In this document: one piece after another, positions 444-63,555 of the stretch
Numbering within the stretch: position 1 is the stretch's first letter
Layout: each line of letters begins with the position of its first letter
DNA from: Malacoraja senta
Taxonomy: Eukaryota
Reading direction: 5' to 3'
Assembly: GCA_038087875.1 (NCBI GenBank)
Contig: CM075989.1
Coordinates: 6,076,001-6,140,000 of the forward strand
Length of the DNA: 64,000 bases
The notes under the pieces: generated by a model
Told to the model about the DNA's origin: nothing
Database searches by the model: none
Seen by the model: the letters and a program-made list of their open reading frames with translations, nothing else
Program-made: the position numbers and the translations under genes

Positions 444-755
444 GTGTGAGCACCACCGGAAATTGGAGGAGCAGCCCCTCATATTCCGCTTGGGCAGTCT
501 GCACCCTAGCGGCATAAACATTGACTTCTCCAATTTCCGGTAGCCCTTGCTGTCTCCACCACTTCTCAGCTCTCCCTCAGCCCTCGGGCTCCTCCTCTTC
601 CTTTCTCCTTTCGGGACAAAACCCTTCTTAAAGGGTTTTGGCCCGAAACGTTGCCTATTTCCTTCGCTCCATAGATGCTGCTGCACCCGCTTAGTTTCTC
701 CAGCGCTTTTGTCTACCTTCGATTTTCCAGCATCTGCAGTCCCTTCTTAAACATA
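444..755 (+). mobile_element. Penelope-like element 3' fragment: GIY-YIG endonuclease C-terminus plus rearranged pseudo-LTR
   Basis: 442-543 translates QCEHHRKLEEQPLIFRLGSLHPSGINIDFSNFR*. It is followed by the pLTR unit ending ...ccttcttaaaca. Direct repeat tatatctca at 435-443 and 756-764. Confidence 0.85.
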
Positions 756-968
756 TATATCTCACCGATCCATTGTACGGTACAAATTAATAACGAAATG
801 CACGGTTCATGATTACCCAACAGAGCCAAATAATTACCCTGCCTTGTGTTTTAACTGCAGCTCAATAAATAATGAGTCTGCCTTGTGATGCCAGGACATT
901 GAACTGTGTTGGATCACTACAGTCAGGCATGGTACTGACACTGCACCAGAATGAACACTTGAATCACT

Positions 969-1861
969 GAACACCTCCGCTCAGTCCGCCTAGGCCTAGG
1001 ATTACGCGATCTCCCATTTGCTAAACATTTTAACTCCCCTTCCCATTCCCACACCCACCTTTCCGTCCTGGGCCTCCTCCATTGTCAGAGTGATGCCCAA
1101 TGCAAATTGGAGGAACAGCACCTCATATTTCGCTTGGGCAGCTTACACCCCGGCGGTATGAACATTGACTTCTCTAACTCTTAGTAACACTTGCTTTCCC
1201 TCTCTCTCTGTTGCTCCCCCACCCTAGTTCTCTGACAGGTTCCACTGATTAATTTTACTGATGCTACACCTCATTGTTGCCGTCCCCTCAGCCAACAATG
1301 AACCTTTCTACATTCTCCTTGAGCATCATCTGCTTTATGACAATGGACAATAGGTGCAGGAGTAGGCCATTCGGCCCTTCGAGCCTGCACCGCCATTCAA
1401 TGTGATCATGGCTGATCATCCCCAATCAGTACCCTGTTCCTGCCTTCTCCCCATATACTCTGACTCCGCTATCTTTAAGAGCCCTATCTAACTCTCTCTT
1501 GAAAGTATCAGAGAACCGGCCTCCACCGCCCTCTGAGCCAGAGAATTCCACAGACTCACAACTCTCTGTGAGAAAAAGTGTTTCCTCGTCCCCGTTCTAA
1601 ATGGCTTACCCCTTATTCTTGACCTGTGGCCCCTGGTTCTGGACTCCCCGAACATCGGGAACATGTTTCCTGCCTCTAGCGTGCCCAAACCCGTAACAAT
1701 CTTGTATGTTTCAATAAGATTCCCTCTCATCCTTCTAAACCCCAGAGTGTACAAGCCCAGCCGCTCCATTCTCTCAGCATATGACAGCATTTGATTTGTC
1801 CTTTTCACTCCTTACCCTTCCATATCTCTAGTCTCCCTCTAACCCTGACTCTCATTCTGAA
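969..1861 (+). mobile_element. Penelope-like element fragment (GIY-YIG C-terminal half and 3' region), interrupted by a CR1 tail at ~1339-1786
   Basis: 969-1184 reads EHLRSVRL...PFAKHFNSPSHSH...KLEEQHLIFRLGSLHPGGMNIDFSNS*, typical of PLE endonuclease ends. The pyrimidine-rich 3' region resumes after the CR1 insert. Confidence 0.8.
1339..1786 (-). mobile_element. CR1/HER1-type LINE 3' fragment
   Basis: ORF 1488..1808(-) ERLGLYTL.FRRMRGNLIETYKI...FFSQRVVSLWNSL, then 3' UTR and a (CTATTGT)-type tail. Confidence 0.9.
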
Positions 1862-1989
1862 TCCCTCTCTTCCTTGAAGCCACAATTATGCGGCAGACCT
1901 GCATGTGGACAGCGCATGGCTGCCTCTGGTCTGAACAGTGGCTGTACGGATTGCTTATCTGTAAATGATCAAGGTCCTCTGTAAGCAGA

Positions 1990-2145
1990 TGAAATACACA
2001 AAAAGGTGGAGTAATTCAGCGGGACAGGCAGCATCTCCGGAGAGAAGGAATGGGTGGTGTTTCAGTCTCGACCCAAAACGTCACCCATTCCTTCTCTCCA
2101 GAGATGCTGCCTCTCCCGCTGAGTTACTCCATCGTTTTGTGTCTA
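1990..2145. mobile_element. Fold-back Penelope-derived pLTR unit
   Basis: Two inverted arms of the pLTR unit. 15-bp direct repeat tcctctgtaagcaga at 1975-1989 and 2146-2160. Confidence 0.8.
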
Positions 2146-2409
2146 TCCTCTGTAAGCAGACCGGCCTATCATGGGCTTCAAAGCTTGGAACAGGTAATGA
2201 GGGCTCTTTCTTCAAATCAGTGCAATGTTTCTTCTGTGTCTGTCCTCCTGACACTCGCCGACCCAAAGAGAAGGCAGAGTCACCAGTGGATCACAAATGC
2301 ATGACTGACAAAGGCCTTGTCAACATATGATGACAAACCCTCGCTGCTGATAATGCTGATTTGGTTCAGTTTCTAGTTGAGCGATGCTGCGGGGAAAACG
2401 CACACCTCC

Positions 2410-4292: not shown

Positions 4293-4388
4293 AAAAGACA
4301 CAAAGTGTTCGATTAACTCAGCAGGTCAGGCAGCATCTCTGGAGAACAAGGACAGGTAACATCTCGGGTCAGGAACCTTCTTCAGACT
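4293..4388 (-). mobile_element. Penelope-derived pLTR unit (degenerate)
   Basis: Reverse complement of the ctgaagaagg...gatgctgcctgacctgctgagtt unit. Confidence 0.75.
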
Positions 4389-5274: not shown

Positions 5275-5400
5275 GGAAGAAGGGTCTCGACCCGAAACGT
5301 CACCTATCCGTTTTCTCCAGAGATGCTGTCTGACCCGCTGAGTTACTCCAGCATTTTGTGCCTATCTTCTGTTTAAACCAGCATCTGCAGTTCCTTCCTC
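5275..5400 (+). mobile_element. Penelope-derived pLTR monomer
   Basis: gaagaagggtctcgacccgaaacgtcacc...cagttccttcctc. TSD gataaaaagg at 5265-5274 and 5401-5410. Confidence 0.85.
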
Positions 5401-7619: not shown

Positions 7620-9029
<1,410 letters not shown>

Positions 9030-9423: not shown

Positions 9424-9652
9424 GGCCAGCACAGTGGTGCAGCCGGTAGAGCTGCTGCCTCACAGCACCAGAAAGCCGGGTTCGATCCTGACTTTGGCTT
9501 CTGTTGGTGTGGAGTTTGCACGTTCTCCCTACGACCATATGGGTTTCCTCCAGGTACACCGGTTTCCTCCTACACCCCAGGTTTGCAGGTGACTTGGCCT
9601 CTGTAAATATCGTCCCTAGTGTGTAGGGAGTGGATGAAAAAGTGGAATAACA
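9424..9652 (+). mobile_element. V-SINE (HE1-like), 3' end lost at a PLE insertion
   Basis: A box tggtgcagccgg, B box ggttcgatcc, V-domain ggagtttgcacgttctccc. Confidence 0.85.
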
Positions 9653-9654
9653 TG

Positions 9655-9916
9655 GAAGATAGACCCAAATGCTGGAGTAACTCAGCGGGTCAGGCAGCAT
9701 CCCTGGAGAACATGGATAGGTTCCCATTCGGGTCACGATCCTTCTTCAGACTGATTGTAAGGGGACGGAAGGAGGGACGGGACGGGACATAGCCCGCAGG
9801 TAATAGGTGGACACAGGTGAAGGGGGGTTTTGATCGGCAGACGGTTGGACAAAGTGCAGAGATGAAAGAAAGGATGTGAGTAAAGAGGATTGGGAATTGT
9901 GAAGCCAGAGGAAGAA
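9655..9916 (-). mobile_element. Penelope-derived pLTR with upstream 3' region
   Basis: Reverse complement of the pLTR unit plus a purine-rich extension like that at 1190-1340. Confidence 0.7.
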
Positions 9917-10420: not shown

Positions 10421-10509
10421 CATAGCTCCTCCAGCAATTTGTTTTCTGTTTACCTCAAGATTCCAGCAACAGCAGTCTCACTTGGTGTCTTCAACAGTAC
10501 TTCATCGGA

Positions 10510-10666
10510 GAGAAGGAATGGGTAACATTTCGGGTCGAGACCCTTCTTCAGTCTGACCGGAAACGTCACCCATTCCTTCTCTCCAGAGATGCCGCCTGTC
10601 CCGCTGAGTTACTCCAGCGTTTTGTGTCTATCTTCGGTGTAAACCAGCACCTTCTGTTCCTTCCTG
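10510..10666. mobile_element. Fold-back Penelope-derived pLTR unit
   Basis: Short inverted arm plus forward arm. 18-bp TSD caacagtacttcatcgga at 10492-10509 and 10667-10684. Confidence 0.85.
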
Positions 10667-11373: not shown

Positions 11374-12277
11374 TTCCTAATCTGTTCTCATTCGATTGTA
11401 CAGACCTCTTGTAAGCTAAGGTCCCAATCTCCCAACCTACCTCATTGCAGCCCTGCACTTTTTTTTATAAAATCTACACTTTCCCTGTAACGGTAACATT
11501 ATATTCTGCACTCTGTTTATGGTCCTCTTTGCACTACCTGTTGTTCTTGTGAAGAGCTCGATTGTACTCATGTACCAATGTGATTTGCCTGGACAGCAAA
11601 TGAAACACAAAATTTCCCACTGTATATTGGTACATCTGACAGCAATACTAACAACAGCAATAACATTGCGAGCTATATTTATATTGATTTCCTTGACTCC
11701 TGTGTTCCAGAGATATTCTCGCCAGCAAGAATGAGTCACGTTGGTAATTTGCGGTGATAATGAAACAATACTGGAAACAAATGTGCTGGTACCATGGTTC
11801 ATTACAGGTGTGTCAAAGGCCAAGGTGAGATGGATATATTGGAATTGAGTGAAGCCACAATCTCGGCTGAAAGTCAGTCGAGGGAAGTGGGATGTGTTGA
11901 CGCGTGATTCCCGATGCCTCAACTCTATTGCCTGCCCTCAACAGTTTCATGGAGCTGGAGCCCGGTTCAATACATGTTAAAGTGGCTGTTGTGCTCCCAT
12001 CGACTGACACGGGTGTTAAACTGCCAGGAGTCTGATTGCTCCTAATTTAGAATGCAACCTGCCTGGTTCTGCTAAGTGTGAAAGATAAGCTAATCGCTGT
12101 CCTTGACAGCTGCTCTGCTCTGAGGGTCACCAGAACTCATCTGTACATCTCCTCTTTCCCTGAGTCTGATGCACTGTAACAGTAGATTCCAACTGTTCGA
12201 TCTAAGTTAGCCTCCGCTGCTGCGTGAGTGATGCCCTTTGGAGTGGGTGTGCTTCACTACTCTCTGCCTCGGCTCCA

Positions 12278-12377
12278 GACACAAAGTGCTGGAGTAACTC
12301 AGCGGGACGGGCAGCATCTCTGGAGAGAAGGAATGGGTGACGTTTCGGGTCGAGACGCTTCTTCGGACTTCTTCAGG
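12278..12377 (-). mobile_element. Penelope-derived pLTR monomer
   Basis: gacacaaagtgctggagtaactcagcggg...gtgacgtttcgggtcgagac. Confidence 0.8.
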
Positions 12378-15362: not shown

Positions 15363-15400
15363 CAGGGTGGCACAGTGGCGCAGTGGTACAGTTGCTGCCT

Positions 15401-15715
15401 GACTGACTGTCCTGGGCCTCCTCCATTGTCAGAGTGAGGCCCAGCGCGAATTGGAGGAACAGCACCTCATATTTAGCTTGGGTAGTTTACACCCCAGCGG
15501 TATGAACATTGACTTCTCTAACTTCAAGTAGCCCTTGCTTTCCCTCTCTCTCCATCCCCTCTCCCTTCCAAGTTCTCCCACCAGTCTTACATTTTATCTC
15601 TGTACCACCCACTCCCCTGACATCAGTCTGAAGAAGGGTCTCGATCCGAAACGTCACCCATTCCTTCTCTCCAGAGATGCTGCCTGATCTGCTGAGTTAC
15701 TCCAGCATTTTGTGC
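15401..15715 (+). mobile_element. Penelope-like 3' fragment linking the GIY-YIG end to the hammerhead-bearing pLTR
   Basis: VLGLLHCQSEAQRELEEQHLIFSLGSLHPSGMNIDFSNFK*, then a pyrimidine tract, then ctgaagaagggtctcgatccgaaacgtc. Confidence 0.88.
15628..15655 (+). ncRNA. Minimal type I hammerhead ribozyme core (PLE-type)
   Basis: CUGAAGA-A-GGGU CUCG AUCC-GAAAC-GUC. Activity untested. Confidence 0.6.
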
Positions 15716-16091
15716 CTGCCTTACAGCGCCAGAGACCCGGGTTCGATCCTGACTATGGGTGCCGTCTGTACGGAGTTTGTACGTTCTCCCCGTGATCTGC
15801 GTGGGTTTTCTCCGGGAAGCTCCTGTTTCCTCCCGCACTCCAGAGGTGTACAGGTTTGTAGGCTAATTGGCTTGGAATAAATGTCAAATGCTTCGCTAGC
15901 GTGAGGCCGGGTTTGGTTCATAGCTCACACTCTACGGGAAGGTCCATGGTCCACATTGATAGAGTGGTCAAAGTTCAGACTCCAATGGAGTTAGCTGCTG
16001 CTAACTTGGGCTTTCAAGGTCAGTCTGGGGCCGAAGAGCTGAAGGCTTAAGAAAATGAAGAGTTGCTTCTGAAGAAGGGTATGAGGTGATA

Positions 16092-17122: not shown

Positions 17123-17390
17123 GGAAGGAACCGCAGATTCTGGCTTATTATGAGGATGGACACAAAGTGCTGGAGTAACTCAATGGGTCAGGCATGTTGG
17201 TACACGATAGGAGCAGAATTAGGTCATTCGGCCCGTCGTGTCTGCTCCGCCATTCAATCATGGCAGCATGTCTGATGAAAAAGGTTGGCTGAAGCTTCGG
17301 GTTGGAACCCTTCTTCAGACTGAAAGTAGAGTGGGGGGGGGGGGGGGGGAGGGGTGGAACTAGAGGTAGGAAATGGCAGGGCTTCAGTTG
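17123..17390 (-). mobile_element. Penelope-derived unit with nested CR1 tail piece (~17196-17262)
   Basis: ggaaggaaccgcagat...ctggagtaactcaatgggtcaggca ... cccttcttcagactga. Confidence 0.7.
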
Positions 17391-18920: not shown

Positions 18921-20201
18921 TAGAGTCATAGAGTGATACAGCGTGGAAACAGGCTCTTCGGCCCAACTTGCCCACACCGACCAACCTATCCCAGCTACAC
19001 TAGTGTTAAAGAAGGAACTGCAGATGCTGGAAAATCGAAGGTACACAAAAATGCTGGAGAAACTCAGCGGGTGCAGCAGCATCTATGGAGCGAAGGAAAT
19101 AGGTAACGTTTCGGGCCGAAACCCTTATGAAGAAGGGTTTCGGCCCGAAACGTTACCTATTTCCTTCGCTCCATAGATGCTGCTGCACCCGCTGAGTTTC
19201 TCCAGCATTTTTGTGTACCAGCTACACTAGTCCCATTTGGTCCACATTCCTCCAAACCTGTCCTATCCATGTACCTGTCAAACAGTTTCTTAAACCTTGG
19301 GAAAGTCCCTGCCTCAATTATCTCCTCTGGCAGCTTGTTCTATGCATCCACCACCCTTTGTGTGAAAAGGTTACCCCTCAGATTCCTATTCAATCTTTTC
19401 CCCTTCACCTTAAACCTATGCCTTCCGGTCCTTGATTCACCTACTCTTTGCATCTACCCGATTTATTCCTCTCAGGATTTTATACACCTCAATAAGATCG
19501 CCCCTCATCCTCCTGCGCTCCAAGGAATAGACTTCCAGCCCATCCAACCTCTCCCTATTGCTCACACCCTCTAGACCTGGCAACATCCTCATAAATCTTC
19601 TCTGTACCCTTTCCAGCTTGACAACATCTTTCCTATAACATGGTGCCCAGAACTGAGCACATTACTCTAAATGCAGTTTCATCAACATCTTATACAACTG
19701 CAACATGGCCTCCCAACTTCTATACTCATTATTCTGACCGATGAAGGCCAAAGTGCCCAAGGTATTTTCTACCTGCGACTCCACCTTCAAGGAACCATGC
19801 ACCTGTACTCCTAGATCCCTATGCTCTACAACACTACCCAGAGCCCTACCATTCACTGTGTAGGTCCTGCCCATGTTAGATTTCCCAAAATGCAACAGCT
19901 CACATTTCCCCGTATTTAATTCCATCAACCATTCCTCCGCCCACCTGACCAATCGATCAAGATCCTGCTGCAATCTTTCACAACCATCTTCACTATCTGC
20001 AAAACCACCCACTTTTGTATCATCAGCAAACTTGGTAATATTGCCCTGTATGTTCTCATCCAAATCATTGATGTAGATGACAAACAGTAACGGGCCCAGC
20101 ACCGAACCCTGAGGCACACCACTAGTCACAGGCCTCCAGTCCGTGAAAAAACTTCCACCATCACCCTCAGCTTCCTTCCATGAAACCGATTTTCTATCCA
20201 A
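18921..20201 (-). pseudogene. CR1/HER1 LINE 5'-truncated copy with RT C-terminal half
   Basis: ORF 19662..20201(-) SGVPQGSVLGPLLFVIYINDL...KFADDTK. Decayed downstream, with a (CTATGACT) tail. Confidence 0.93.
19005..19217. mobile_element. Near-perfect fold-back Penelope-derived hammerhead unit nested in a CR1 tail
   Basis: ~86-bp inverted arms around a ~6-nt spacer. 14-bp TSD ccagctacactagt at 18991-19004 and 19218-19231. Confidence 0.92.
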
Positions 20202-20216
20202 TGGTACAACAGCATA

Positions 20217-20928: not shown

Positions 20929-21305
20929 AGTTCCGACATGATTTTCACCCTCCCTGGTCTAAAAAATGATGGACCTTATTATCTCACAGAACAACTAGAT
21001 TTTGCCAACCTTATTTCCCCAAAGACAGTAAAAATGCTGGAGGAACTCAACGGGTCGGGCAGCATCTGTGCAAGAATGTGTAGAGTCTGTGTTTTGGATT
21101 CAGACCTTTTCGGACGAACTGGTTCAGTCTGAAGGGTTCCAACCTGAAACATCGTCTGTCTATTCCCTCCATGGATGCTGCCTGACTCACACAGAGTTTC
21201 TCCAGCACTTTGTGTTTTTGTTGCTCAGGATTCCAGCATCTGGATTTATTTTTGTCTTCATTTCCACAGAGGCTATGCTATTGAATAGCCTGACGCACAA
21301 GCACG

Positions 21306-25623: not shown

Positions 25624-25865
<242 letters not shown>

Positions 25866-29689: not shown

Positions 29690-29789
29690 TCAGTCTGAAG
29701 AAGGGTTTCGGCCCGAAACGTTGCCTATTTCCTTTGCTCCATAGATGCTGCTGCACCCGCTGAGTTTCTCCAGCATTTTTGTCTACCTC
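29690..29789 (+). mobile_element. Penelope-derived monomer with hammerhead core at 29695-29722
   Basis: ctgaagaagggtttcggcccgaaacgtt. Confidence 0.85.
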
Positions 29790-37274: not shown

Positions 37275-37695
37275 TGAGTGGGTTTTCTCCGCGATCTTCG
37301 GTTTCCTCCCACAGACGCGCAGGTTTTGTAGGTTAAATGTGTCGGAAGGAACTGCCGAAGCTGGTCAAAGATAAACACAAAGAGCTGGAGTAACTCAGCA
37401 GGTCAGACAACATCTCTGGAGAAAAGGAATAGGTGATGTTTCGGGTCAGGTCTGAAGAAGGGCCTGGACCCGAATCATCACCCATTCCTTTTCTCCAGTG
37501 ATGATGTCTTTTGACCCGCTGAGTTACTCCAGCTGTATGTGTCTATCCCAGGTTGGTAGGTGAATTAACTTGGTATAAATGTAAAATTGTCCCTGGTGTC
37601 TGTAGGGTAGTGTTAATGTGCGGGGATCACTGGCCGGTGCGGACTCGGTGGGCCGAAGGGCCTGTTTCTGCGCTGTATCTCTAAACTAAACTAAA
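37275..37695 (+). mobile_element. V-SINE 3' part with nested fold-back PLE unit (~37338-37548)
   Basis: Imperfect duplication caggtt(t/g)(t)gtaggt(t/g)aa flanks the inverted pLTR arms. Confidence 0.8.
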
Positions 37696-38765: not shown

Positions 38766-38947
38766 AAACATTGCCCCAGTCACCTTAAAGTGATGCCCTC
38801 TAGTCTTTGATTTTGTCCACAATCATTTCCCATAGACCACCAACCACCATGGATCCACATTTACTTCATTACTTTAACGTCAAGAGTCAAGCGGATTTTC
38901 TTATCATATCTTCTTCTTATCGAGTCCACACACAAGATTGGAAGTTG

Positions 38948-39303
38948 GAACCTTCTTCAGACCGATGTGAGGGTGGAGGGGGGGGGGGGGGGGGTAGGGG
39001 GCTGGAAGAAGGAAGGAAGAGGAGGAGCCAGTGGGCTGAGGGAGAGCTGAGAGCGGTATGGACATTGACTTCTCTAATTTCAGGTAGTCCTTACTTTCTC
39101 CTCCCCTTCTCAGCTCTCCCTCAGCCCATTGGCTCATCCTCTTCCTTTCTTCTTCCCGCCCCCACCCTCACATCAGTCTGAAGAAGGGTTTCGGCCCGAA
39201 ACGTTGCCTATTTCCTTCGCTCCATAGATGCTGCCTCGCCCGCTGAGTTTCTCCAGCATTTTTGTCTACCTTCGATTTTCCAGCATCTGCAGTTCCTTCT
39301 TAA
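38948..39303 (+). mobile_element. Penelope-like 3' end with inverted 5' arm; hammerhead core at 39178-39205
   Basis: GMDIDFSNFR* remnant, pyrimidine tract and full pLTR unit. Left arm is an inverted copy. Imperfect TSD acaagatt(g/a)ga(a/t)gttg. Confidence 0.87.
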
Positions 39304-40142
39304 ACAAGATTAGATGTTGTTCAGCCAGAGCTGAACACACTTCTCGGCATCTACACACAATGGTGTCTGTCTTGTCCTTCTTGTGCTTCTTGTGCGTGGT
39401 GGTGGAAAGATTGGTGGAAACAGGGCCGCGACGTGAACGCTTCTTGTCATATGTCCCAGATGGAACAAAGAAGTCTATATTATACTCTACACTGATAAGG
39501 GGCAGGGTGAAATCCCATCACTGATCAGTGGCTGTGATCATTTTATCATTTTTATTTGGAACAAATCACAAAGTGCAGGAGGAATGTAATGGGTCAAGCA
39601 GCATCTGTAGAGGGAATGTACAGGCGATGTTTTAGGTCGAGACCCTTCTTCAGGCTGGTTTAATACCTTGGCTGAGTTATTTATCCAATCTTGGCATGTA
39701 ATCTCAACCTGAAGGTGCCCAGTTACAGAGTTTTTCCTACCTAACTTTGCCTTTGTCCTTTATACTTTTCTCAACGCTTTATTTTCACGCTGGAGGAAGG
39801 CCATGGGGTGTGAGCTGGAACGGACGCTAATGGGAGCAAGATGTGCCCTGCGCTTAATGGCTTTCTGTCGGACTATTTCCACTTCTTTGTTTGGATTTCT
39901 AGTCCAGATATAAAGAGAGAGACATTTATTTGGTTCCAGTAAACCGGCTGTGCACCTCCAAGCGGAAACTCAAGCCAGAATCTTGCCCTCTACTACATGC
40001 AGCCGTTCTTCTAAAGTCGTGTCGGATGCACAAAAGTGAGCATGTTGTGCCTTTAACACACACAGCACAGGGTAAACCACCTTATCCCCGGTCACCACCA
40101 CCATGTCTCGGGCACCAGTGGGTGAATCTTCAGGATTGTGTA

Positions 40143-43076: not shown

Positions 43077-44139
43077 CATGCCCCTCTCACCATAAAACTT
43101 TGTCCTCTAGCATTTGATATTTCCATTCTGGGAAATAGGTTCTGCCTGTTCACTCTATCAATACCAATAACCATGCCTATCCTAATACATGCACGTTATC
43201 TAATGGGAGAATAACCCAGCTAATCTGAAGTTTTAACAGAAGACTAAATGAAATGGAATTGATGTTCAAGCCATTAACTGCACGTTCGGTGAGGAAGATG
43301 CCAAACAGGTTTTTGAAATCACAGAAGGAGTTACTGAGATGCAAGTTGGAACAAAGGATGAGGGACTTCAATATAACCGTCATTAGCCTGAAAAAAATGG
43401 CTTGAGATTAAAAAGAAACCTTTATTTCCTCACAGAATGGAAGGTTATTGATTTTGGGTCAATTGGTATTTTTAAAAAGGAACTGGATCAATATCCATTT
43501 AATAGCAGGTTGATGGCGATACAGTTATTTAATGCTGCTTGTTTTTATTCTGCGGAAGCTCAGGGGAGAGGTTTGGGTGTGAAGTACTGATAATAGCAGG
43601 TCAGGCAGCAACTGCAGAATGGACTATTGTTTCAGTTCAGATAAAAGATCATCAAAGTGAAACCTTCACTGTTTTTCATTCAACAGATGCTGCTTGACTC
43701 AGTGAGTATTTCCAGCTCTCTGTGTATTTACCCTGGGCTTAGGGGAAACTCAGGGTGTGAATTGGCACTTCACAGAGCAAGTCTGGCCTCTCCAGTGAGC
43801 AATCGGTGCAAATTTAGTAAATCCCTTCTATGTGTCTCAGTATTCATTCTCATTGCACTGTCCAGAATGGAATGCAGCATTTCACTTTAAAAAAAAGCAC
43901 AAAGTGCTGGAGTAGCTCAGCAGGTCAGGTGGCATATGTCTTTTTTTGCATCATCAGCAATTCCTTGTTTCTCCACAATATTTCACTGGAGGTCCAACAA
44001 GATTCAACATAAGACAGACAAAAAATGCTGGAGTAACTCAGCGGGTCGGGCAGCATCTCCAGAGATAAATAATACATTACGTTTCGGGTCAAGATCTTTC
44101 TTCAGACTTTTTGTGTCTATCTTCCGGTTAAATCAGCAT

Positions 44140-44352
44140 CAGGTGGTGGGTGTCAGCTGCCAGAGGAGGTAGTTGAGGCTGGGTCTATCCCAACGTTTAA
44201 GAAACAGTTAGCCAGGTACATGGACATGACAAGTTTGAAGGGATATGGGCCAAATGCAGGCAGGTGGGACTAGTGTAGCTGGGACATGTTGGACGGTGTG
44301 GGCAAGTTGGGCCAAAGGGCCTGTTTCCACACTGTATCACTCTATGACTCTA
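44140..44352 (+). mobile_element. CR1 3' end
   Basis: ctgccagaggaggtagttgaggc...ctctatgactcta. Confidence 0.85.
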
Positions 44353-49190: not shown

Positions 49191-49214
49191 CCTGAGAAAC
49201 ATACAGTCAATGAT

Positions 49215-49307
49215 CAGTCTGAAGAAGGGTTTCGACCCGAAACGTTGCCTATTTCCTTCGCTCCATAGATGCTGCCTCACCCGCTGAGTTTCTCCAGCAT
49301 TTTTGTC
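49215..49307 (+). mobile_element. Penelope-derived monomer, hammerhead core at 49219-49246
   Basis: ctgaagaagggtttcgacccgaaacgtt. TSD tacagtcaat(g/a)at at 49202-49214 and 49308-49320. Confidence 0.88.
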
Positions 49308-49864
49308 TACAGTCAATAATATATTCTGTTGTTCCCTCTGTTCCCTTATTTCCCGACCACTTTCTTCCCCTATGGTGACATCAATCTACCTCCGTCATGG
49401 TCATTCGAATTTCACTCTACCTTAATTGGTGCAAGTGACAAGAAAGTGACCTTGAAACTGACCTTCATTCTGACAGGCTGCCTCTCGCCCACAAGCTTTC
49501 TCCTCAGTGTTTTAACAACGCAACAAGCTCCACTGGCTTGGTACCAGCCGGGCACAGGTTTCACAGCTTGCACACAGCGGTGACGCTCCATTTGATTTCA
49601 TTTCCCACGTGAGGCAGCAGAACACCTCGTCGCAACTCGTTCAGTGATCAATAAAGTACTGAACACAAATGAGATCTGTGTGTGTGTGTGTGTGAACAAC
49701 ACTGATTCCGAAATAGGCAATCAGAAAGCTAATCCCTCAGCCTTTACGTCAATCACAGACTTCCAACGGTTACACAGTGCCACAAATCCGCCATAAATCG
49801 TCACACTTTGCACTTGCACTCAAACCTCCTCTCTTCAATGTTTATTGTGGATTTATATGAACGA

Positions 49865-50038
49865 GAAGGTCGACACAAAATGCTGGAGTAACTCAGCGGG
49901 ACAGGCAGCATCTCTGGAGAGTAGGAACGGGTGACGTTTCGGGTCGAGACCCTTCTTCAGATCCGAAACGTCACCCATTCCTTCACTCCAGAGATGCTGC
50001 GTGTCCCGCTGAGTTGCTCCAGCATTTTGTGTCGGTCC
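49865..50038. mobile_element. Fold-back Penelope-derived unit; intact core at 49933-49960(-)
   Basis: Inverted arms meet at cttcttcaga|tccgaaacgtc. Confidence 0.85.
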
Positions 50039-50938: not shown

Positions 50939-52554
50939 ACAGTGTTTCCACACTGTATCACCATATGGCTCTATGCCTTCTAGTTCTTGATTATCCTATC
51001 CTGGGTGAAATACTCTCTGCATCTACCCAAATCTATTCCCCTCATGATTTTATACACCTCTATAAGATCGCCCCTCAGCCTCCTGCTCTCCAAGAAATAA
51101 AGTCTGACGTTTCCTTATCGCCCAGGCCCTCAAGTCTTGGCAACATCCTCGTAAATCCCTGCACTCATTCCAGCTTAATTCCAGAGTATGCCAATGGAGA
51201 AATGCCATATGGCTGCACTAAACATTAATTGGTACACTTCACTGGTAAACAGACTGTTTGTAGCTTACAATGTGTTTGGGGAAGTGTTTTCCCTTGTGTG
51301 TCCCAGCATTACACAGCCATGGATGCCAGCCCAGGTTCACTCCTGCAGTCAAAATACAGGGAACACATCCAATTAATCCCTTTATAATTGCAAGATCTAC
51401 CATCTAAACTCCTCTTATCAGAACTCTAATTGCACAAAACTATTCCCAGCAACTGCATACCACTTTGGCTGTAATTATTTTCCATTTTCTCTTTTTCCCA
51501 TGTGAAGTGAGCAATTCAAGTCTGTAGGAGTTTCATAGACTTAAGTAGCAAGCCCAGGTTGTAGCTATCCATAATTGCTCTCCTTGCAAAGCTGTGCTGG
51601 CTCCTGGTTTACAAGCTCTCAGTTCAGTTCAGTTTAGTTTATTGTCACATGTACCAAGGTACAGTTAAAACCTTTTTTGTTGCTTGCTATCCAGTCCGCA
51701 GAAAGACAATACATGATTATAATCGAGCCATGTATAGTACACAGATACATGATAAGGGAATAACGTTTACTGCAAGGTAAAGCCAGCAAAGTCTGATCAA
51801 GGATAGTCGAAGGGTCACCAAAGAGGTAGAAAGTAGTTCAGTGCCTATTCACGTTGTCAAGACACACTGCCTGACCTGCTTCGTTACTTCAGCACTTTAT
51901 GTCCTTTTGTGTAAACCAACACTTGCAGTTCCTTGTTTCCACAAGTTCAGTTTGTAAGTTAATTGGCCTCCATAACATTTCCCTCAGTGTATAGGGTGCG
52001 GATGAGAAAGTGGGACAACATAGAACAGGTCATCGATGGGGTCAGTGGGCCAAAGGGCCCAGGTCCAGTCAGTATCTCTAAACTAAACTAAAGAGTGCGC
52101 CCAACAACATACAGGACTCTGCTATTTATTCTGTTTCCCTTTAATTGGGAACCGTGGCAGTCAAAGGTTTCCAGGGAGTTATGAATCTGTGGAATTTTCT
52201 GCCACAGAAGGCAGTGGAGGCCAATTCACTGGATATTTTCAATGGAGAGTTAGATATAGCTCTCAGGGCTAACGGAATCAAGGGATATGGGGAGAAAGCA
52301 GAAACGGGGTACTGATTCTGGATGTCATGGTCGAATTGAATGGCGGTGCTGACTCGAAGGGCCAAATGGCCTAATCCTGCACCTATTTTCTATGTTTTAC
52401 ACCACCTTGGCAGGGTTATCTGTGCAAGAACATGAGCAATTTGTACTGTGAGTGATGAGTCTGCTGCAGTAAACCATCCAGGGTCAGCTGGGTGTGTGCC
52501 CAAGGGGAGGGGAATGTCACAGTGTGATGTATCTGAGCACCTTGTGGCTGCGAA

Positions 52555-53172
52555 GTCTAGGAAAGGCGCTGAATCAAGCCTAAAAAGGGCATCCACCATT
52601 ATCCAAACCTTCCCACAACAGAGCATCACTATTGATCCCACACCACCCTGGCCACCTTCTAATGTCACTCCCACCAGCGTAATGAAGGTACAGGAGTCTG
52701 AAAAACTGTGTAGTCAAGTCAAGTCAACTTTATTTGTCACATCCACATACAAGATATGCAGTGAAATGAAAGTGGCGATGCCTGCGGATTGTGCAAAAAC
52801 TACAGAACAGAATAGAACAGAATCAGTATTTACAGAATAGAAAAAAAACATTTTAATTTAAAAAAGACCCAACACAACAGTAAATTAGTACAGTAGTCCC
52901 TGGTGAGATAAGAGGTTAAAGTCCTGTAAACCCCTGTGACAACCAGCTTCAAGAACAGCTTCTAACCCACAACCGTCAGGGTCTTCAACGCTACACATCA
53001 CTCACCTCAACTGTGAACTGTGGACTGTCTTTGGTTGCACTAAGGACTCCGGGCATTTTAGGGGTTATTAATTTATTGAATTTCTGTTTATTATATATTC
53101 TCTTGTGTCTGCAGGACTGTAATGTTGCTGCAAGTAAGGATTTTGTTGTTCCATTGTACATATGACATTTGA
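52555..53172 (+). mobile_element. Rex1-type 3' fragment interrupted by a minus-strand (TTGAC)n-tailed piece (~52713-52925)
   Basis: LKRASTIIQ...HHPGH...RYRSLK, resuming accagcttcaagaacagcttc. Confidence 0.65.
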
Positions 53173-53174
53173 CT

Positions 53175-53272
53175 GAAGATGGACACAAAATGCTGGAGTA
53201 ACTCAGCGGGTCAGGCAGCATCTCTGGGGAAAAGGAATAGGTGACGTTTCGGGCCAAGACCCTTCTTCAGAC
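53175..53272 (-). mobile_element. Penelope-derived monomer, core at 53243-53270(-)
   Basis: gtgacgtttcgggccaagacccttcttcag. Confidence 0.82.
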
Positions 53273-53387
53273 GGTTGATTTTGAAAGTGATCAGAAGCAA
53301 TAAACTTGCAGCTCTCTAACCCAGGGGGGAGATTTAAGTTGATCTGGGAGTTGGCCTGACACCCTTTACAAGAACCAGAGGGGTGTA

Positions 53388-55062: not shown

Positions 55063-55244
55063 GCCGGTATTGAGAGTTTAACTAAAATAGCCAAAGTACT
55101 GGAGTAACGCAACAGGTCAGAGAGCATCTCTGGAAGACATGGATGGATGACATTTCAGGCTTCATACGGCAAATAATTAGAGCAATACAGACCTGTTTCT
55201 AGGTTCATACAGTATATATTTGTAGAAGTATTTGATAGTAGTGT

Positions 55245-57152: not shown

Positions 57153-57582
57153 ATGTAAGAAGGAACTGCAGATGCTGGTTTACACCAAAGATAGTCACAA
57201 AATGTTGGAGTAACTCAACGGGTCAGGTAGCATCTCTGGAGAAAAGGAATATGTGATGTTTCAGGTCGATAGTTGTCAATTTAATTTAATTTAGTTTGAG
57301 AAACAGAGTGGAAACAGGTCCTTCAGCCCACTGAGTCCACACCGACCCTGTACACTAGCACTATCCTACTCATTAGGGACAATTTATAATTTACAGAAGC
57401 CAATTAACCTGCAAACCTGCACGTCTTTGGAATGTGAGAGGAAACCAGAACATCCGGAGAAAACCCAATCAGTTGCAGGGCTAAAGTATAAACTCTGTAC
57501 AGACAGCACCATAGTCAGGATCGAACCTATGTCTTTAACACTGTAGGGTAGCAACTATACCTCTGCGCCACTGTGCCGCCCA
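57153..57582 (-). mobile_element. Penelope-derived unit (57153-57270) followed by a full V-SINE (57280-57582)
   Basis: tgtaagaaggaactgcagatgctgg...; SINE head complement ccactgtgccgccc. Confidence 0.85.
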
Positions 57583-58289: not shown

Positions 58290-59554
58290 TGGAACTAACT
58301 TTTCAAATAATTTTCAGCCATAGTTTTACTGTCAAAGAAGATGGGGAATATTATTAATTTTGTCTCCAGCTTAATCCAATCATTGTTGTTTCATTTGGCG
58401 AGCTTCCCAAATCTTCCTGTTGTGTAGGGCACAGACAATACAGGGCCAAAATGGAGAACATATGCTCGACTTCTTTTAAAGAGCAGAATAGGTATGTGGC
58501 AGACACTCAGGAAGCAAAGCTTGGAAGGCTCAAAGATCTATGGACAGAGTGAAGATATTGACCTCTTGTGCGGTTTCCTCACAGCCTGTGCTGTCCAAGG
58601 ATCCCCAACCATTTTTAGTTCCATCTTCCTCTGATGTACCCCATCTGCCTTACATACCAGAGTATGCAAACTTCCTCTCCCTGTGGCTGTGATTCCTCAA
58701 GATCCACCACAAGTGTCGTAGAGTCCCAAAAGAGCACATAAAACAGTCTGAGCAAGGGTCTCGACCCGAAACCTCACCCATTCCTTCTCTCCAGTGACGC
58801 TGCCTGTCCCGCTGCATAACTCCAGCATTTTGATGACTTTTAGTGCCAGCAAAGTCTGATGAAGAATTGTCCGATGGTCACCAGTTAGGTGAATAGTAGT
58901 TCAGCACTGCTCTCCGGTTGTGGTGGGATGGTTCTGTTGCCTGATAGCAGCTGGGACGAAACCGTCCCTGAATCTGGAGGTGTGCATTTTCACACTTCTG
59001 TACCTTTTGCCTGATGGGAGAGGGGAGAAGAGGGAGTGGACAGGGTGAGACTCGTCCTTGATTATGCTGCTGGCTTTGCCCAGTCAGCGTGAGTCACCAA
59101 TCCCCTCCTGCTAGATTTTATACAACTTGTTTTTTAAATTGGTAAACGCGGACAAAAAGATTGGCATGGACATGGTGGGCTGAAGGGCCTGTTCTGACCT
59201 ACACAGCTCTGTGGTTCTATGAGCTTGATGCTAGTTATTGATGGAATAACTACCTTTGAGAAATCTAAATGCTGACAGCCCTGAGTGAAAATAATCCTCA
59301 CGATTCTCCTCGACATCTTTTATTAATTTTTTTTTAACCTTGACTCGCAATGATTGATCCACTTGCCAGAGGGGACAGATTCCCTCCCTCTGCACCATAT
59401 AAACCTCTCATCATCTCGATGTCATCTGCCAGGTCACAGCTTGACCTTCACTGAGTACAATCAATCAGAAATACACCCGTTTCCAAGGCAGTTAGATAAC
59501 GGGAGAGATCCACCAAGCTGCATCCCCTTCGATCTCTCGTTTTCACACCTTACC

Positions 59555-59754: not shown

Positions 59755-59940
59755 TAGCAGGGGATCGATGTGAAAATTAAGAGACATTGGAATTGTGGAG
59801 CAATAAGAAGGGGATGCATTTAGCAGAGATCTGGAAAAAGCTGATACACAAACTGGCTGAAAACCTCGATACAAGCTATGAAAATGAAACAGAAAATGCC
59901 GGAGCTGTCCCGCTGAGTTACTCCAGCATTTTGTCTATCT

Positions 59941-60815
59941 AAGGCATATGATATGCTCGCCTTCAGTGATCAGGGCATTGAATATAAGGATCGGGAATTC
60001 TTTATAAGAATTTGTTGAGGCTGTGTTTGGAGTATTGGGTGTAGTTCCCCATACAGGAAGGATGCGGAGGCTTTGGGCTGGGTGCGGAAGAGGTTTACCA
60101 GAATGCTGCCCGGATTAGATGGCATGAACTGTAAAGAGAAGTTGGACAAACTTGGATTGGTTTTTACGGAGTGTCAGAGGTTGAGGGGAGACCTGGTAGA
60201 AATTTGTAACATTATGAGAGGCACAGATAGGGTAGAAAAGTCCGTACCATTTCCCCAGGATGGAGGAAATGTTGAAGACTAGAATGCATAGCTTGAAAGT
60301 GAGAGGAGCAAAGTTTAAAGGAAGATAGACACAACATGCTAGAGTAACTCAGCGGGACAGGCAGCATCTGTGGAGAGAAGGAATGGGCCGAGACCCTTCT
60401 TCAGACTGGAGATGTTTCAAGGAGATGTGTGGGGCATGTTTTCTACACAGAGAGTGGTGGGTGCCTGGAATGCACTGCCAGGGGTGATGGTGGAGGCAGA
60501 TACGATAGTGGCCTTTAAGGGGCTATTCGATAGGCACATGGATATGCAGTGAATGGAAGGGATATGGATCACATGCAGACAGAGATCAGTTTAACTTGGC
60601 AGTCTGAAGAAGGGTTTCGGCCCGAAACGTTGCCTATTTCCTTCGCTCCATAGATGCTGCCTCACCCGCTGAGTTTCTCCAGCACTTTTGTCTACCTTCG
60701 ATTTTCCAGCATCTGCAGTTCCTTCTTAAACAGTTTAACTTGGCATCCTGTTTGGCATGGACATTGTGGGCCGAAGGGCCTGTTCCTGTGCTGTACTGTC
60801 GGATGTTCTATGACT
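59941..60815 (+). mobile_element. Decayed CR1 3' fragment with two nested PLE units (60322-60408 minus; 60602-60730 plus)
   Basis: VRKRFTRMLPGL...RLRGDLVE; TQRVVGAWNALP. Confidence 0.88.
60602..60730 (+). mobile_element. Complete 129-bp Penelope-derived hammerhead monomer, core at 60604-60631
   Basis: 15-bp TSD cagtttaacttggca at 60587-60601 and 60731-60745. Confidence 0.92.
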
Positions 60816-61419
60816 CACCAGTATATACATTGGTGTCCACCGGCCCACGGTGGGTGCCGGAGATCGGTCGAGGACTCGCTGCCGAAAAAACGAACAGGGA
60901 CCTGGCGTGAAGGGGCCACCGAGACCAAAGAAGGAGGACCACTGGGACAACATTGAACACTTTGTATCTTAGACAGCACCCTATACTCTTTGCATTCTTT
61001 GTATATGGTACAGAAGACAAATAATTTCACTGTGATGTCACATGATAATGAAGCATCATCCATTCATGTGTTAAAGAAGGAACTGCAGATGCTGGAAAAT
61101 CGAAGGTACACAAAAATGCTGGAGAAACTCAGCGGGTGCAGCAGCCATTATGTGTCACAAACAGCACTGCTGGTATAATTTGAATAACAAATATTGCAAA
61201 GACACTGGGATTAAGTCGCCTGATCCACTTTTGATATTATGCCAAGGAGTTCAATGAGACGTTTACTCTTTCTCTTTCCACAGTTGCTGACTGACCTGCT
61301 GAGCGTTTCCACCAGCATCCGCTTTTATTTCAGGTTTCTGGCATCTGCCAGTTTTAGATTTTCAGTCTTTCAGGTGTGAGCTGAGAGGTGAATGGTGGTG
61401 AGGACTCTGCAAAGACTCT

Positions 61420-62326
61420 GAGAGAATGGAGCGGCTGGGCTTGTACACTCTGGAGTTGAGAAGGATGAGAGGGCATCTTATTGAAACACATAAGATTGTT
61501 AAGGGTTTGGACACGCTAGAGGCAGGAAACATGTTCCCGATGTTGGGGGAGTCCAGAACCAGGGGCCACAGTTTAAGAATAAGGAGTAAGCCATTTAGAA
61601 CAGAGACGAGGAAACACTTTTTTTCACAGAGAGTTGTGAGGCTGTGGAATTCTCTGCCTCAGAGGGCGGTGGAGGCCGGTTCTCTGGATACTTTCAAGAG
61701 AGACCTAGATAGGGCTCTTAAAGATAGCGGAGTCAGGGGATATGGGGGGAGAAGGCAGGAATGGGGTACTGATTGGGGATGATCAGCCATGATCACATTG
61801 AATGGCGGTGCTGGCCCGAAGGGCCGAATGGCCTACTGCACCTTTTGTCTATTGTCTATTGTCTATAAGAATTCCTCAAATGTTGCAGAAGGTTCAGCAC
61901 TTTTGGCTTATACTCGCTAGAATTTAGGAGATTGAGAGGGGATCTTATAGAAACGTACAAAATTCTTATGGGGTTGGACAGGCTAGATGCAGGAAGATTG
62001 TTCCCGATGTTGGGGAAGTCCAGGACAAGGGGTCACAGCTTAAGGATAAGGGGGAAATCCTTTAAGACCGAGATGAGGAAAAACTTTTTCACACAGAGAG
62101 TGGTGAATCTCTGGAACTCTCTGCCACAGAGGGTAGTTGAGGCCAGTTCATAAGAGGGAGTTAGATGTGGCCCTTGTGGCTAAAGGGATCAGGGGGTATG
62201 GAGAGAAGGCAGGTACGGGATACTGAGTTGGATGATCAGCCATGATCATATTGAATGGCGGTGCAGGCTCGAAGGGCCGAATGGCCTACTCCACACCTAT
62301 TTTCTATGTATCTATGTATCTATGTA
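61420..62326 (+). mobile_element. Two tandem CR1/HER1 3' fragments (61420-61866; 61904-62326)
   Basis: ORFs 61426..61782 and 61932..62153. Tails (CTATTGT)n and (CTATGTAT)n. Confidence 0.92.
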
Positions 62327-63029
62327 ACATCCATCCAAGTGGGCAGAAGTGCTCTCGATCCAATGCCAGCCAAGAATCTGCCCGTATGTTTTGTGAATCA
62401 GTGCAGTAAGTGCTACTACGGAGCATTGGTTAAAATGCCATCGGGGCAAGTGGGGGGGGGGGGTGGGGGTCATAGACTTGGTGTTTGGATGGCATCACTC
62501 CGTAATTGATGGATAGGTTGGTGGACTCGACCCAAAGCATCACCCGATCCTTCTCCCCAGAGATGCTGCCCGTCCCGCTGAGTTACTCCAGCATTTTGTG
62601 TCTCTCCCCCAAATAACTCGTTCCTGTGGCTCGTTGCCACCGGAATGATGTCTTCTCCTGCCTCCCACCCGTGTCAGACTCTTGCTGGGGCCAGAATCAT
62701 CCCCGCGCTCCAGACGCTCTGCCATCTAAATGCACACAGTGCAACCCATCTCCTGGCAAGTGCGCCCGCTGTAATGAGGTGCAGCGATATGAAAGCACAA
62801 CCTCGGGTGAAAACTGCTTCACCTTCTGCATCCTGATGAAGAATTTATATGGAGGACGTGACCTTGTTCCACACAGAAACCTTGATCTCAGAACTCGTCC
62901 CCTGTGCCGGCTTTTTAACTCTCGTTTCAGCTTGATTTTCAAAGTTGGTTTCGTTATCCGAGGCATGGTGTGCGGACTGGGTATTCTCACAAAGACCACC
63001 ATAAAGCTGCCGCAGCAAACTACCACTGT

Positions 63030-63555
63030 TTGTTCACATATGTGTACATATACACACTCACACTCACTCACAGGCACTGGTGCACACGTACACTGGCATG
63101 GGCACGCATGCACACACCAAGACACACACGCAGATACCTACAGGGGCAAACACACACATAGGCAGGCAGACATGCATAAACACACACATACACATGCACG
63201 CATGCACACAGCCACAAAAACGGTACCTATAGAGGCAAACACACACACACAGGCAGAAAGACAGACATAAATACACATACACACACTCTCCCACACATAT
63301 ACATTCACACACACATAGATAGGCAAACGCACACAAAGGCAGACACAAAATGCTGGAGTGTGTGCTTCTTCAGACTGAAGGGTCGCGACCCAAAACGGCA
63401 CCCACTCCTCTCCAGAGATGCTGCCTGTCCCGCTGAGTTACTCCAGCATTTTGTCTCTACCTTCGATTTAAACCAGCATCTGCGGTTCTTTCCCACACAC
63501 AGGCAGACAGACAGACAGATACAAACACACTGATGCACACACTCTCACACACCTG
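63030..63555. repeat. Degenerate (CA)n tract containing a fold-back PLE unit (~63341-63493)
   Basis: CA-rich simple sequence; gacacaaaatgctggagt...cttcttcagactgaaggg...ccagcatctgcggttc. Confidence 0.8.

What the first reader, a model, noticed from the sequence alone, without database searches (positions are those of the whole stretch)
444..63493. Very abundant ~130-nt hammerhead-headed mini-retroelement derived from a Penelope-like pLTR
Seen: about 35 copies or fragments (by eye, roughly one per 2 kb) of one short unit. Complete copies such as 30297-30430 and 60602-60730 begin 2-4 nt before CTGAAGA-A-GGGT-YTCG-RCCC-GAAAC-GTY and carry their own 9-18 bp TSDs. At 15401-15715 and 38948-39303 the same unit lies just downstream of a GIY-YIG C-terminus, which ties it to a Penelope-like element. 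Established: PLE pLTRs carry minimal type I hammerheads (CUGAnGA...GAAA...NUH), some of which cleave as dimers. Inference: the ribozyme-bearing unit is mobilised as a SINE- or retrozyme-like non-autonomous element at a density similar to the V-SINEs, scattering potential self-cleavage sites on both strands of any transcript crossing the region. Caveat: stem I is only about 2 bp (GU/AC or GU/GC), and there is an extra A or an A.C pair at the base of stem II.
Basis: partly seen in the sequence, partly recalled or inferred. Interest (0 to 1): 0.75.

Follow-up and report, generated by a model that had tools for sequence, protein, structure and literature searches.

The report
Stub copies of Penelope retroelement end
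The repeat is real and very dense, but it is the short end-piece of a Penelope-like jumping gene carrying a minimal hammerhead motif already known from such elements; its copies start at one sharp point that is not the ribozyme's cut site, so they are likely copies that ran off the start of the element's RNA, not a separate ribozyme-driven element.

Summary
Observation confirmed: 47 profile hits at 37 places (0 in 5 control sequences), about one per 1.7 kb. They are the hammerhead-bearing end (pLTR plus optional ~35-nt 'tail') of a Neptune/Nematis-type Penelope-like element (PLE) of a cartilaginous fish. Three copies follow a GIY-YIG C-terminus; 3' ends are bimodal (~+97, ~+130); 9 places are head-to-head inverted pairs. 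These are published PLE hallmarks. The 5' end is discrete: 17 of 41 unlinked hits start at +1..+3, and summed contig depth steps 9-35-fold there in 4 runs. So this is not random truncation. The retrozyme/SINE reading is not supported: ends are ~30 nt from the cleavage site, tandem arrays are nearly absent, there are no A/B boxes, and ORF-linked copies nest among solo copies. Only 7 of 47 hits keep an intact minimal hammerhead, predicted to misfold as monomers. Best model (inferred): run-off 'strong-stop'-like cDNAs from two internal RT start sites to the RNA 5' end. This scan noted the same kind of unit in several other cartilaginous-fish windows. Known kind; the sharp 5' boundary is the one modestly new point.

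The parts
444..755 (+). ORF-linked PLE 3' stub: last 33 codons of GIY-YIG EN, pyrimidine-rich UTR, small local inversion (609-630), unit +10..+132 (631-753); TSD 435-443/756-764
15401..15717 (+). ORF-linked PLE 3' stub: GIY-YIG C-terminus 15409-15528, UTR, unit +1..+93 (15625-15717, no tail, intact min-HHR); inserted inside a tRNA-type SINE
38943..39306 (+). ORF-linked stub with inverted 5' arm (about 38946-39050), last ~11 codons, UTR, full unit 39175-39306 (reference copy); TSD 38932-38942/39304-39314, 1 mismatch
39175..39207 (+). Minimal type I hammerhead in the reference copy: stem I 5' (39176-39177), CUGAAGA, extra A, stem II with 4-nt loop, GAAA, palindromic ACGU, predicted cut after 39205, stem I 3' (39206-39207)
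60601..60730 (+). Solo long unit (+1..~+130), intact min-HHR, 15-bp exact TSD, 98.5% identical to the ORF-linked 39175 copy
30297..30430 (-). Solo long unit, intact min-HHR, 13-bp TSD, one extra A at the 5' junction
49216..49310 (+). Solo short unit (+1..+95, no tail), intact min-HHR, TSD 49202-49214/49308-49320 (1 mismatch)
29692..29790 (+). Solo short unit, intact min-HHR
53172..53273 (-). Solo short unit, intact min-HHR (starts +2)
5276..5399 (+). Solo long unit from +6, 10-bp TSD
32054..32279 (-). Only head-to-tail pair: short copy (+1..~+93) then long copy (+1..+131); each head has one defect
1982..2153 (.). Head-to-head inverted pair, 12-bp TSD
10507..10665 (.). Head-to-head inverted pair (- arm reaches +1, + arm from ~+19 with tail), ~19-bp TSD
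19004..19219 (.). Young inverted pair: - arm +10..+132 with tail, + arm +5..+96 without; 14-bp TSD
21030..21242 (.). Old inverted pair
36238..36366 (.). Inverted pair centred at ~+43, headless
37344..37547 (.). Inverted pair: + arm from +2 without tail, - arm from ~+17 with tail
44003..44140 (.). - arm from +1 joined to an inverted piece of the tail region (~+85..+115)
49860..50031 (.). Inverted pair: - arm from +3, + arm from ~+19
63336..63493 (.). Long + arm with small inverted head and inverted +77..+98 piece
9649..9860 (-). Older copy with upstream pyrimidine-rich UTR, decayed hammerhead
29212..29430 (-). Older copy with upstream UTR similar to that of 9752, with tail
17123..17365 (-). Older copy, probably UTR-linked, split by a ~70-nt insertion
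4296..4388 (-). Solo short unit from +1, decayed
12277..12369 (-). Solo short unit from +1, decayed
39567..39656 (-). Solo short unit from +1, decayed
58745..58832 (+). Solo short unit from +1, decayed
60313..60407 (-). Solo short unit from +1 with 13-nt internal deletion
51843..51934 (+). Old copy starting at +32, the predicted cleavage site, with 8-bp TSD (single case)
55076..55159 (-). 5'-truncated fragment
57157..57269 (-). Fragment from ~+17 with tail
59905..59940 (+). Fragment +60..+97
61069..61146 (-). Young fragment ~+55..+132
61273..61348 (+). Old weak fragment
62523..62606 (+). Fragment from ~+13, no tail
43679..43727 (+). Old weak fragment
43870..43935 (-). Old fragment

Best explanation
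The unit is the hammerhead-bearing pLTR end of a Penelope-like retrotransposon with a C-terminal GIY-YIG endonuclease (likely Neptune/Nematis type), and its ~97- and ~130-nt copies are likely run-off cDNAs that the element's own enzyme starts at two internal sites and that stop at the RNA's 5' end, probably a transcription start at +1. Steps: (1) shown: same sequence follows the EN stop and a pyrimidine-rich UTR in ORF-linked copies; (2) shown here as two 3' ends ~35 nt apart, and established for the Anolis element as two internal RT start sites; (3) shown: sharp 5' end at +1..+3, 30 nt upstream of the cleavage site, so the copied RNA was uncleaved; (4) inferred: +1 is the physical 5' end of the transcript (Inr-like TCA+1GTCT in 4 of 5 linked heads), so priming in the 5' pLTR gives a 'strong-stop'-like cDNA, while priming in the 3' pLTR gives the rarer longer copies; (5) inferred: the short cDNA is either joined to the target (solo copy with TSD), folds back on itself (head-to-head pair) or jumps to another RNA (tandem pair); (6) inferred: the hammerhead rides along, is kept under selection only in source elements, and is inert in nearly all dispersed copies.
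For: ORF link and clade: (CX4CxxC linker in P0002, P0006, P0007; a zebra-shark read-through protein ends in the same head-encoding frame, SLMKGLRPKR against SLKKGLDPKR). Two 3' ends: 27 of 47 hits end at +84..+108, 15 at +124..+132, 2 between; loose ends at 39271-39273 in 3 of 4 runs and at 39306 in 4 of 4. Inverted pairs at 9 of 37 places, plus inversions in 2 linked copies; tail on one arm only at 19004, 10507, 37344, as described in PMC3846280 and PMC8557442. Sharp 5' end: 17 of 41 unlinked hits, binomial P 4e-7 to 2e-13 for a window chosen after looking; depth step of 9-35x across +1 and unit/ORF-end ratio 7-12x in 4 runs. Shared subfamilies: solo 60601 is 98.5% identical to linked 39175; linked 631 groups with solo 29692/30429/19126; linked 15625 lies among old solos. 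Uncleaved RNA is the main substrate in vitro for the Anolis element (PMC11167929). Internal TATA-less promoter shown for D. virilis Penelope (PMC2377424). In three old inverted pairs one arm reaches +1..+3 and the other starts at +17..+21, as fold-back of a cDNA ending at +1 would give.
Against: No RNA 5' end was measured; all runs were contigs, which cannot show starts. No full-length element or 5' pLTR is in the window and no genome was held, so the promoter position is unseen. The Inr consensus is short, recalled, and the same CAG also fits a splice acceptor after a pyrimidine tract; in D. virilis the start lies 46 bp upstream of an intron whose end meets helix I, not at the head. The DPE-like match is poor (3 of 8 mismatches). 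9 of 14 unlinked AG-heads have C at -1 and two have ATC, so some ends lie upstream of +1. Summed contig depth is not a copy number, and the UTR is variable, which lowers its cover at 85% likeness. The tree rests on ~100 columns with weak support among old copies; one young group (30429, 19126, 19128, 61152; bootstrap 99) has no linked member in the window.
Confidence: 0.6

Rival explanations
1. Self-propagating non-autonomous family: solo copies carry their own internal Pol II promoter and RT-loading site, are transcribed in place and are re-mobilised in trans by the PLE protein.
For: Discrete 5' end, own TSDs, 7-12x excess over the ORF end; one young subfamily seen only as solo/inverted copies in the window; pLTR sequences sufficient in cis for trans-mobilisation in a rotifer (PMC3846280) and short RNAs are active templates in vitro (PMC11167929).
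Against: ORF-linked copies nest among solos in young and old subfamilies; with ~1 in 6 places linked, a 3-insertion group without a linked member is expected by chance; no A/B boxes; no host 5' flank seen inside TSDs.
Confidence: 0.2
2. Truncation hot spot: RT starts in the 3' pLTR of a long RNA and mostly falls off where the pyrimidine tract/3'-splice-site-like CAG begins (sequence, structure or bound protein), so +1 is a stall site and not an RNA end.
For: PLEs are heavily 5'-truncated (PMC8557442); the stop sits at the edge of a C/T-rich tract ending in CAG; in D. virilis an intron ends at helix I; ends spread over -3..+6.
Against: No copy in the window joins ORF-end exon sequence to the head; beyond the step the depth stays roughly level across UTR and ORF end instead of decaying; boundary is kept across subfamilies with different UTRs.
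Confidence: 0.17
3. Non-LTR retrozyme: tandem units are cut by the hammerhead into monomers, circularised and reverse-transcribed.
For: Type I hammerhead with palindromic ACGU; subfamily differences fall at tolerated positions (loop II, U-G/U-A swaps, H17); tandem retrozymes were reported from one chondrichthyan genome (bioRxiv 2026.07.22.740005).
Against: One tandem pair among 37 places, both heads defective, first copy lacks the tail; head-to-tail joints in 12 contigs over 4 runs; ends are not at +31/+32 (1 of 41 hits; none of the 24 loose-end rows shown); helix I is 2 bp, not the canonical 6.
Confidence: 0.03

Closest known systems
Minimal hammerheads (min-HHR) in pLTRs of metazoan PLEs (Cervera & de la Pena 2014, PMC4209133)
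   Same: Type I core, extra base between 9 and 10.1, G10.1-C11.1, palindromic 15.2-16.2, no helix III; mostly dispersed single motifs tied to truncated PLEs; Neptune elements of fish named
   Different: Helix I only 2 bp and helix II 4 bp; density of 37 places in 64 kb; cartilaginous fish not named in the main text read
Poseidon element of Anolis (PAc; Frangieh et al. 2024, PMC11167929)
   Same: Hammerhead followed ~80-120 nt downstream by two insertion ends 30-40 nt apart; hammerhead intact in inserted copies
   Different: Different clade (linker motif points to Neptune/Nematis); here most copies also share one sharp 5' end just before the hammerhead, which the passages read do not report
PLE insertions with inverted pLTR and optional tail (Arkhipova et al. 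2013, PMC3846280; Craig et al. 2021, PMC8557442)
   Same: Head-to-head inverted arms, tail on one arm, 8-19-bp TSDs, heavy 5' loss
   Different: Insertions here are usually nothing but the ~100-130-nt end
Non-LTR retrozymes (Cervera & de la Pena 2020, PMC7229834; Li et al. 2026 preprint)
   Same: Non-coding, type I hammerhead, related to PLE pLTRs, dispersed monomers occur
   Different: No tandem arrays, minimal not canonical ribozyme, ends not set by cleavage
Retroviral minus-strand strong-stop DNA (recalled; analogy only)
   Same: Short cDNA from an internal priming site to the RNA 5' end
   Different: Here primed on target DNA and integrated as such; no tRNA primer; mechanism inferred

Membership tests
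EN+ Penelope-like element (Neptune/Nematis type) | C-terminal GIY-YIG endonuclease | tested here: met
   Window peptide 74-77% identical to C-termini of P0001/P0002, E 3e-9 and 2e-8; those carry GIY-YIG at Pfam E 0.001-0.008, below the curated cut-off; the 33-40-aa window peptides alone hit no Pfam family
EN+ Penelope-like element (Neptune/Nematis type) | CX2-5CxxC linker between RT and EN | tested here: inconclusive
   Present in homologues P0002, P0006, P0007, degenerate in P0005; that part is not in the window; no RT tree made
EN+ Penelope-like element (Neptune/Nematis type) | PLE-type RT in the same ORF | tested here: inconclusive
   Absent from the window; weak RVT_1 matches upstream of the EN in homologues P0006, P0007
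EN+ Penelope-like element (Neptune/Nematis type) | pLTR with min-HHR downstream of the ORF, sense strand | tested here: met
EN+ Penelope-like element (Neptune/Nematis type) | Optional 30-40-bp tail; inverted 5' arm; TSDs | tested here: met
min-HHR (PLE type) | CUGAnGA / extra base / stem II / GAAA / palindrome / UH / stem I | tested here: met
   7 of 47 hits; 0 in 99 of 100 shuffles. Covariation not above shuffles, 185/500
min-HHR (PLE type) | Self-cleavage as dimer or with protein | not testable with these tools
   Active monomer fold 7.7-12 kcal/mol above MFE; bare core of the natural tandem +2.3 against MFE -66.8, not a like-for-like comparison
Non-LTR retrozyme | At least two consecutive units, each with a complete hammerhead | tested here: not met
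   One tandem pair, both defective; rare head-to-tail joints in contigs. Whole genome not held
Non-LTR retrozyme | Canonical type I hammerhead (6-bp helix I, loop contacts) | tested here: not met
   2-bp helix I; no Rfam hammerhead hit
Non-LTR retrozyme | Monomeric circular RNA | not testable with these tools
   Only contigs were available
SINE | Pol III head with A and B boxes | tested here: not met
   Best B-box match has 3 mismatches in all 5 unit copies; control SINEs show A box (1 mismatch) and B box (0 and 2) in register (consensus recalled)
SINE | Independent non-autonomous lineage | tested here: inconclusive
   Linked and solo copies intermixed in a 33-copy tree; window only

The most novel reading that the evidence does not exclude
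The dispersed units are integrated strong-stop cDNAs that map the PLE promoter and show that PLE reverse transcription, like that of retroviruses, starts near the RNA's 5' end and needs a strand transfer to the 3' pLTR; the ~130-nt piece (promoter, hammerhead and both RT start sites) is then also a minimal self-propagating Pol II 'mini-PLE' as abundant as the host's main SINE.
Probability: 0.2. Interest if true: 0.65.

Novelty: new member of a known kind. Interest (0 to 1): 0.28.

Why it matters
As a catalogue item it is modest: PLE ends with minimal hammerheads scattered through metazoan genomes were described in 2014, and this scan has met them in several other cartilaginous-fish windows. 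The useful point is mechanistic. How PLEs make their pLTRs, tails and inverted arms, and what the hammerhead does, is still open. A family with one sharp 5' end, two sharp 3' ends and very many copies gives a direct test (CAGE/5' RACE plus end mapping) of whether RT runs off the RNA start and must switch templates. It also argues that these genomes are not seeded with active cleavage sites, since the copied RNA was uncleaved and most copies have decayed.

Tried and rejected
Rfam at E<=1: no hammerhead family; the miRNA hits at 38956-39181, 19061-19198 and similar are long inverted repeats, all below gathering scores. Whole-genome end mapping: no genome held; replaced by laying contigs of 4 of 24 listed runs on 39045-39344. 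RNA: no RNA holder listed; X18 is only guessed to be RNA, so nothing on expression, starts or splicing is claimed. Cleavage-defined 5' ends: one copy (51843) starts at +32; about what chance gives among the non-head hits, and no +32 row is among the 24 loose-end rows shown (1438 not shown). Splicing as cause of the 5' end: pyrimidine tract plus CAG fits an acceptor, but solos keep the AG and no copy in the window joins ORF-end sequence to the head; one DNA contig in one run skips 41 nt with GT..AG ends, at a different AG; kept only as part of a rival. Cleavage just before +1 by a type III or trans topology: no stem I can form (inspection). Covariation of stems I/II: not above shuffles. Intermolecular dimer folding: script crashed; only the natural tandem was evaluated. 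Host gene context: 150 of 189 open frames of >=48 aa in mostly unique sequence gave no Pfam hit, so intronic or intergenic position is unknown. Literature: no paper on this family in cartilaginous fish in searches; 'strong-stop' did not co-occur with Penelope in the 10 of 16 papers listed. Repbase and Dfam could not be searched and may well hold it. Luense et al. 2017 was not held.

Full report
Setting. The window is repeat-rich animal DNA (46% GC, one 200-N gap) with CR1-like RT frames (the label CR1 is recalled) and a tRNA-type SINE at 31 places (the names V-SINE/HE1 are recalled, only A/B boxes were checked). The nearest named proteins to the element's ORF end are from Leucoraja, Stegostoma and Chiloscyllium, so the host is most likely a cartilaginous fish. 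No whole genome was held.

The observation. A profile from 10 copies finds 47 hits and none in 5 control sequences. They fall into 37 places, 36 insertions once one split copy is merged. With +1 set at the A of AGT before CTGAAGA, 30297-30430 and 60601-60730 are full-length with 13- and 15-bp TSDs; 8 of 37 places have a TSD score of 10 or more against 8 of 300 random positions, and a wider search adds 9-11-bp TSDs for two ORF-linked insertions.

What it derives from. Six insertions continue upstream into a pyrimidine-rich stretch, and three of them into an ORF end (444-755, 15401-15717, 38943-39306). The 40-aa peptide at 15409-15528 is 77% and 74% identical to the C-termini of P0001 and P0002, which carry a GIY-YIG motif (Pfam E 0.008 and 0.0013, under the curated cut-off). 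Longer homologues have RT upstream and a CX4CxxC linker, the mark of Neptune and Nematis PLEs (PMC8557442, passages). A zebra-shark read-through protein ends in the same head-encoding frame, so the layout ORF - pyrimidine tract - hammerhead is shared with sharks. No PLE RT is in the window.

Anatomy of the ends. 3' ends are bimodal: 27 of 47 hits end at +84..+108, 15 at +124..+132, 2 in between, 3 earlier (ends of old copies are blurred by local alignment). Contigs of four runs laid on 39045-39344 show loose ends at 39306 (+132) in all four and at +97..+99 in three, with AT-rich low-agreement flanks (top rows only). This is the optional 30-40-bp PLE tail, which in the Anolis element is the distance between two internal RT start sites (PMC11167929, parts 1-2 of 4 and passages). 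Nine places are head-to-head inverted pairs, often with the tail on one arm only, and one is a tandem pair, as in PMC3846280 and PMC8557442 (passages). The 5' end is sharp: 17 of the 41 hits not attached to upstream PLE sequence start at +1..+3 (binomial P 4e-7 to 2e-13, window chosen after looking); many of the others are second arms of inverted pairs. Summed contig depth rises 9- to 35-fold across +1 and the unit exceeds the conserved ORF end 7- to 12-fold in the four runs; loose ends before +1/+2 are among the top rows in 2 of 4 runs. The tool warns that this depth is no copy number, and the UTR is variable, so I read it only as a step.

The hammerhead. The head fits the PLE min-HHR: CUGAAGA, one extra A, 4-bp stem II, GAAA, palindromic ACGU, UH, 2-bp stem I. 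The extra base and the palindrome are listed as conserved features, and D. virilis has a 2-bp helix I (PMC4209133, parts 1-2 of 4). Common variants in the runs fall in loop II, U-G/U-A swaps, H17 or CpG sites (18 rows not shown), which suggests selection in source elements, but covariation among 19 heads is not above shuffles. Seven of 47 hits are intact, five on + about 10-14 kb apart and two on -. The active monomer fold is 7.7-12 kcal/mol above the MFE in five contexts. Published single min-HHRs did not cleave, dimers did so weakly, the Anolis ribozyme needed protein and uncleaved RNA was the main template, and 8 of 9 Xenopus dimers were inactive (bioRxiv 10.64898/2026.07.22.740005, parts 1-3 of 5). 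The copies here include the whole core, so they were copied from uncleaved RNA. One old copy starts exactly at +32 with an 8-bp TSD; a single case proves nothing.

Separate family or by-product? In a tree of 33 of the 47 hits (the shortest and weakest left out), linked copies sit among solos: 39175 with 60601 (98.5%) and 49216; 631 with 29692, 30429, 19126; 15625, 9752 and 29333 among the old copies. There are no A/B boxes. Head-to-tail joints are rare (1, 3, 8, 0 contigs). So neither SINE nor retrozyme membership is met. One young group of three insertions has no linked member here, which leaves self-propagation open.

Mechanism. I commit to this: the PLE protein nicks the target and starts RT at +97 or +130 on an RNA whose 5' end is at about +1; the cDNA runs off after ~97 or ~130 nt and is joined (solo), folds back (inverted pair) or jumps (tandem). 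Shown: PLE origin, both 3' ends, sharp 5' end, uncleaved template, mixed subfamilies. Established elsewhere: internal RT starts (PMC11167929) and an internal TATA-less promoter in D. virilis Penelope (PMC2377424, passages). Inferred: that +1 is a transcription start (TCAGTCT fits the recalled Inr consensus in 4 of 5 linked heads; the DPE-like match is poor) and that long copies need priming in the 3' pLTR or a strand transfer. Against: no RNA end measured; the same CAG fits a splice acceptor; in D. virilis the start is well upstream of the hammerhead; 9 of 14 unlinked heads have C at -1. Odds: run-off from source-element RNA 0.6, self-propagating solos 0.2, stall hot spot 0.17, retrozyme 0.03.

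Novelty. Dispersed single min-HHRs from truncated PLEs are described (about 4,000 in coelacanth and 9,000 in Xenopus), and retrozymes as pLTR derivatives, with one chondrichthyan genome sampled. I found no paper on this family in cartilaginous fish, but Repbase, Dfam, Luense et al. 2017 (not held, seen only through PMC6765202 passages) and the supplements of PMC4209133, PMC11167929 and the preprint were not seen and may cover it. PMC7229834, PMC6155905 and PMC8969392 were read as passages. Earlier notes of this scan report the same kind of unit in other cartilaginous-fish windows; these are unchecked AI notes. Verdict: real, a new member of a known kind; interest 0.28, resting on the sharp 5' boundary.

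Noticed in passing
window 51843-51934 (+): Old copy whose 5' end, bounded by an 8-bp TSD, falls exactly at the predicted hammerhead cleavage site (+32); a head-like stretch lies ~50 nt upstream at 51790
   Followed up: partly
window 29688-29692 and 49212-49216: Two young solos of different subfamilies both have G-ATC before +1, i.e. three bases of the PLE UTR preceded by a G; two contig joints also show G just before +1. Possibly a cap signature, too few to tell
   Followed up: partly
window 39084-39176: The UTR between the EN stop and the head looks intron-like (weak GTAG donor, pyrimidine tract, CAG at helix I), echoing the D. virilis Penelope intron; no spliced form seen
   Followed up: partly
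unit +50..+120 (e.g. window 39224-39294): Predicted helix pairing GAUGCUG with the tail's CAGCAUC, enclosing a GCUG..CAGC hairpin, seen in young and old copies; the short end lies inside it and the long end just past it. Candidate RT-loading structure
   Followed up: partly
joint 39218>39185: 34-nt tandem duplication of the hammerhead hairpin region in 8, 5, 14 and 1 contigs of the four runs
   Followed up: no
window 15340-15903; 30176-30527: PLE stubs inserted inside tRNA-type SINE copies, so these insertions are younger than those SINEs
   Followed up: no
window 44678-47575; 19662-20219; 61402-61782: CR1-like LINE fragments with RT and endonuclease frames
   Followed up: no
window 7580-9195; 25587-26052: Long (CA)n/(CACG)n microsatellite blocks
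   Followed up: no
P0001, P0002: Two annotated Leucoraja 'uncharacterized proteins' are chimeras ending in this PLE's endonuclease C-terminus (one after a LINE-type RT piece, one after DUF4518); likely annotation artefacts or exonised TE
   Followed up: no
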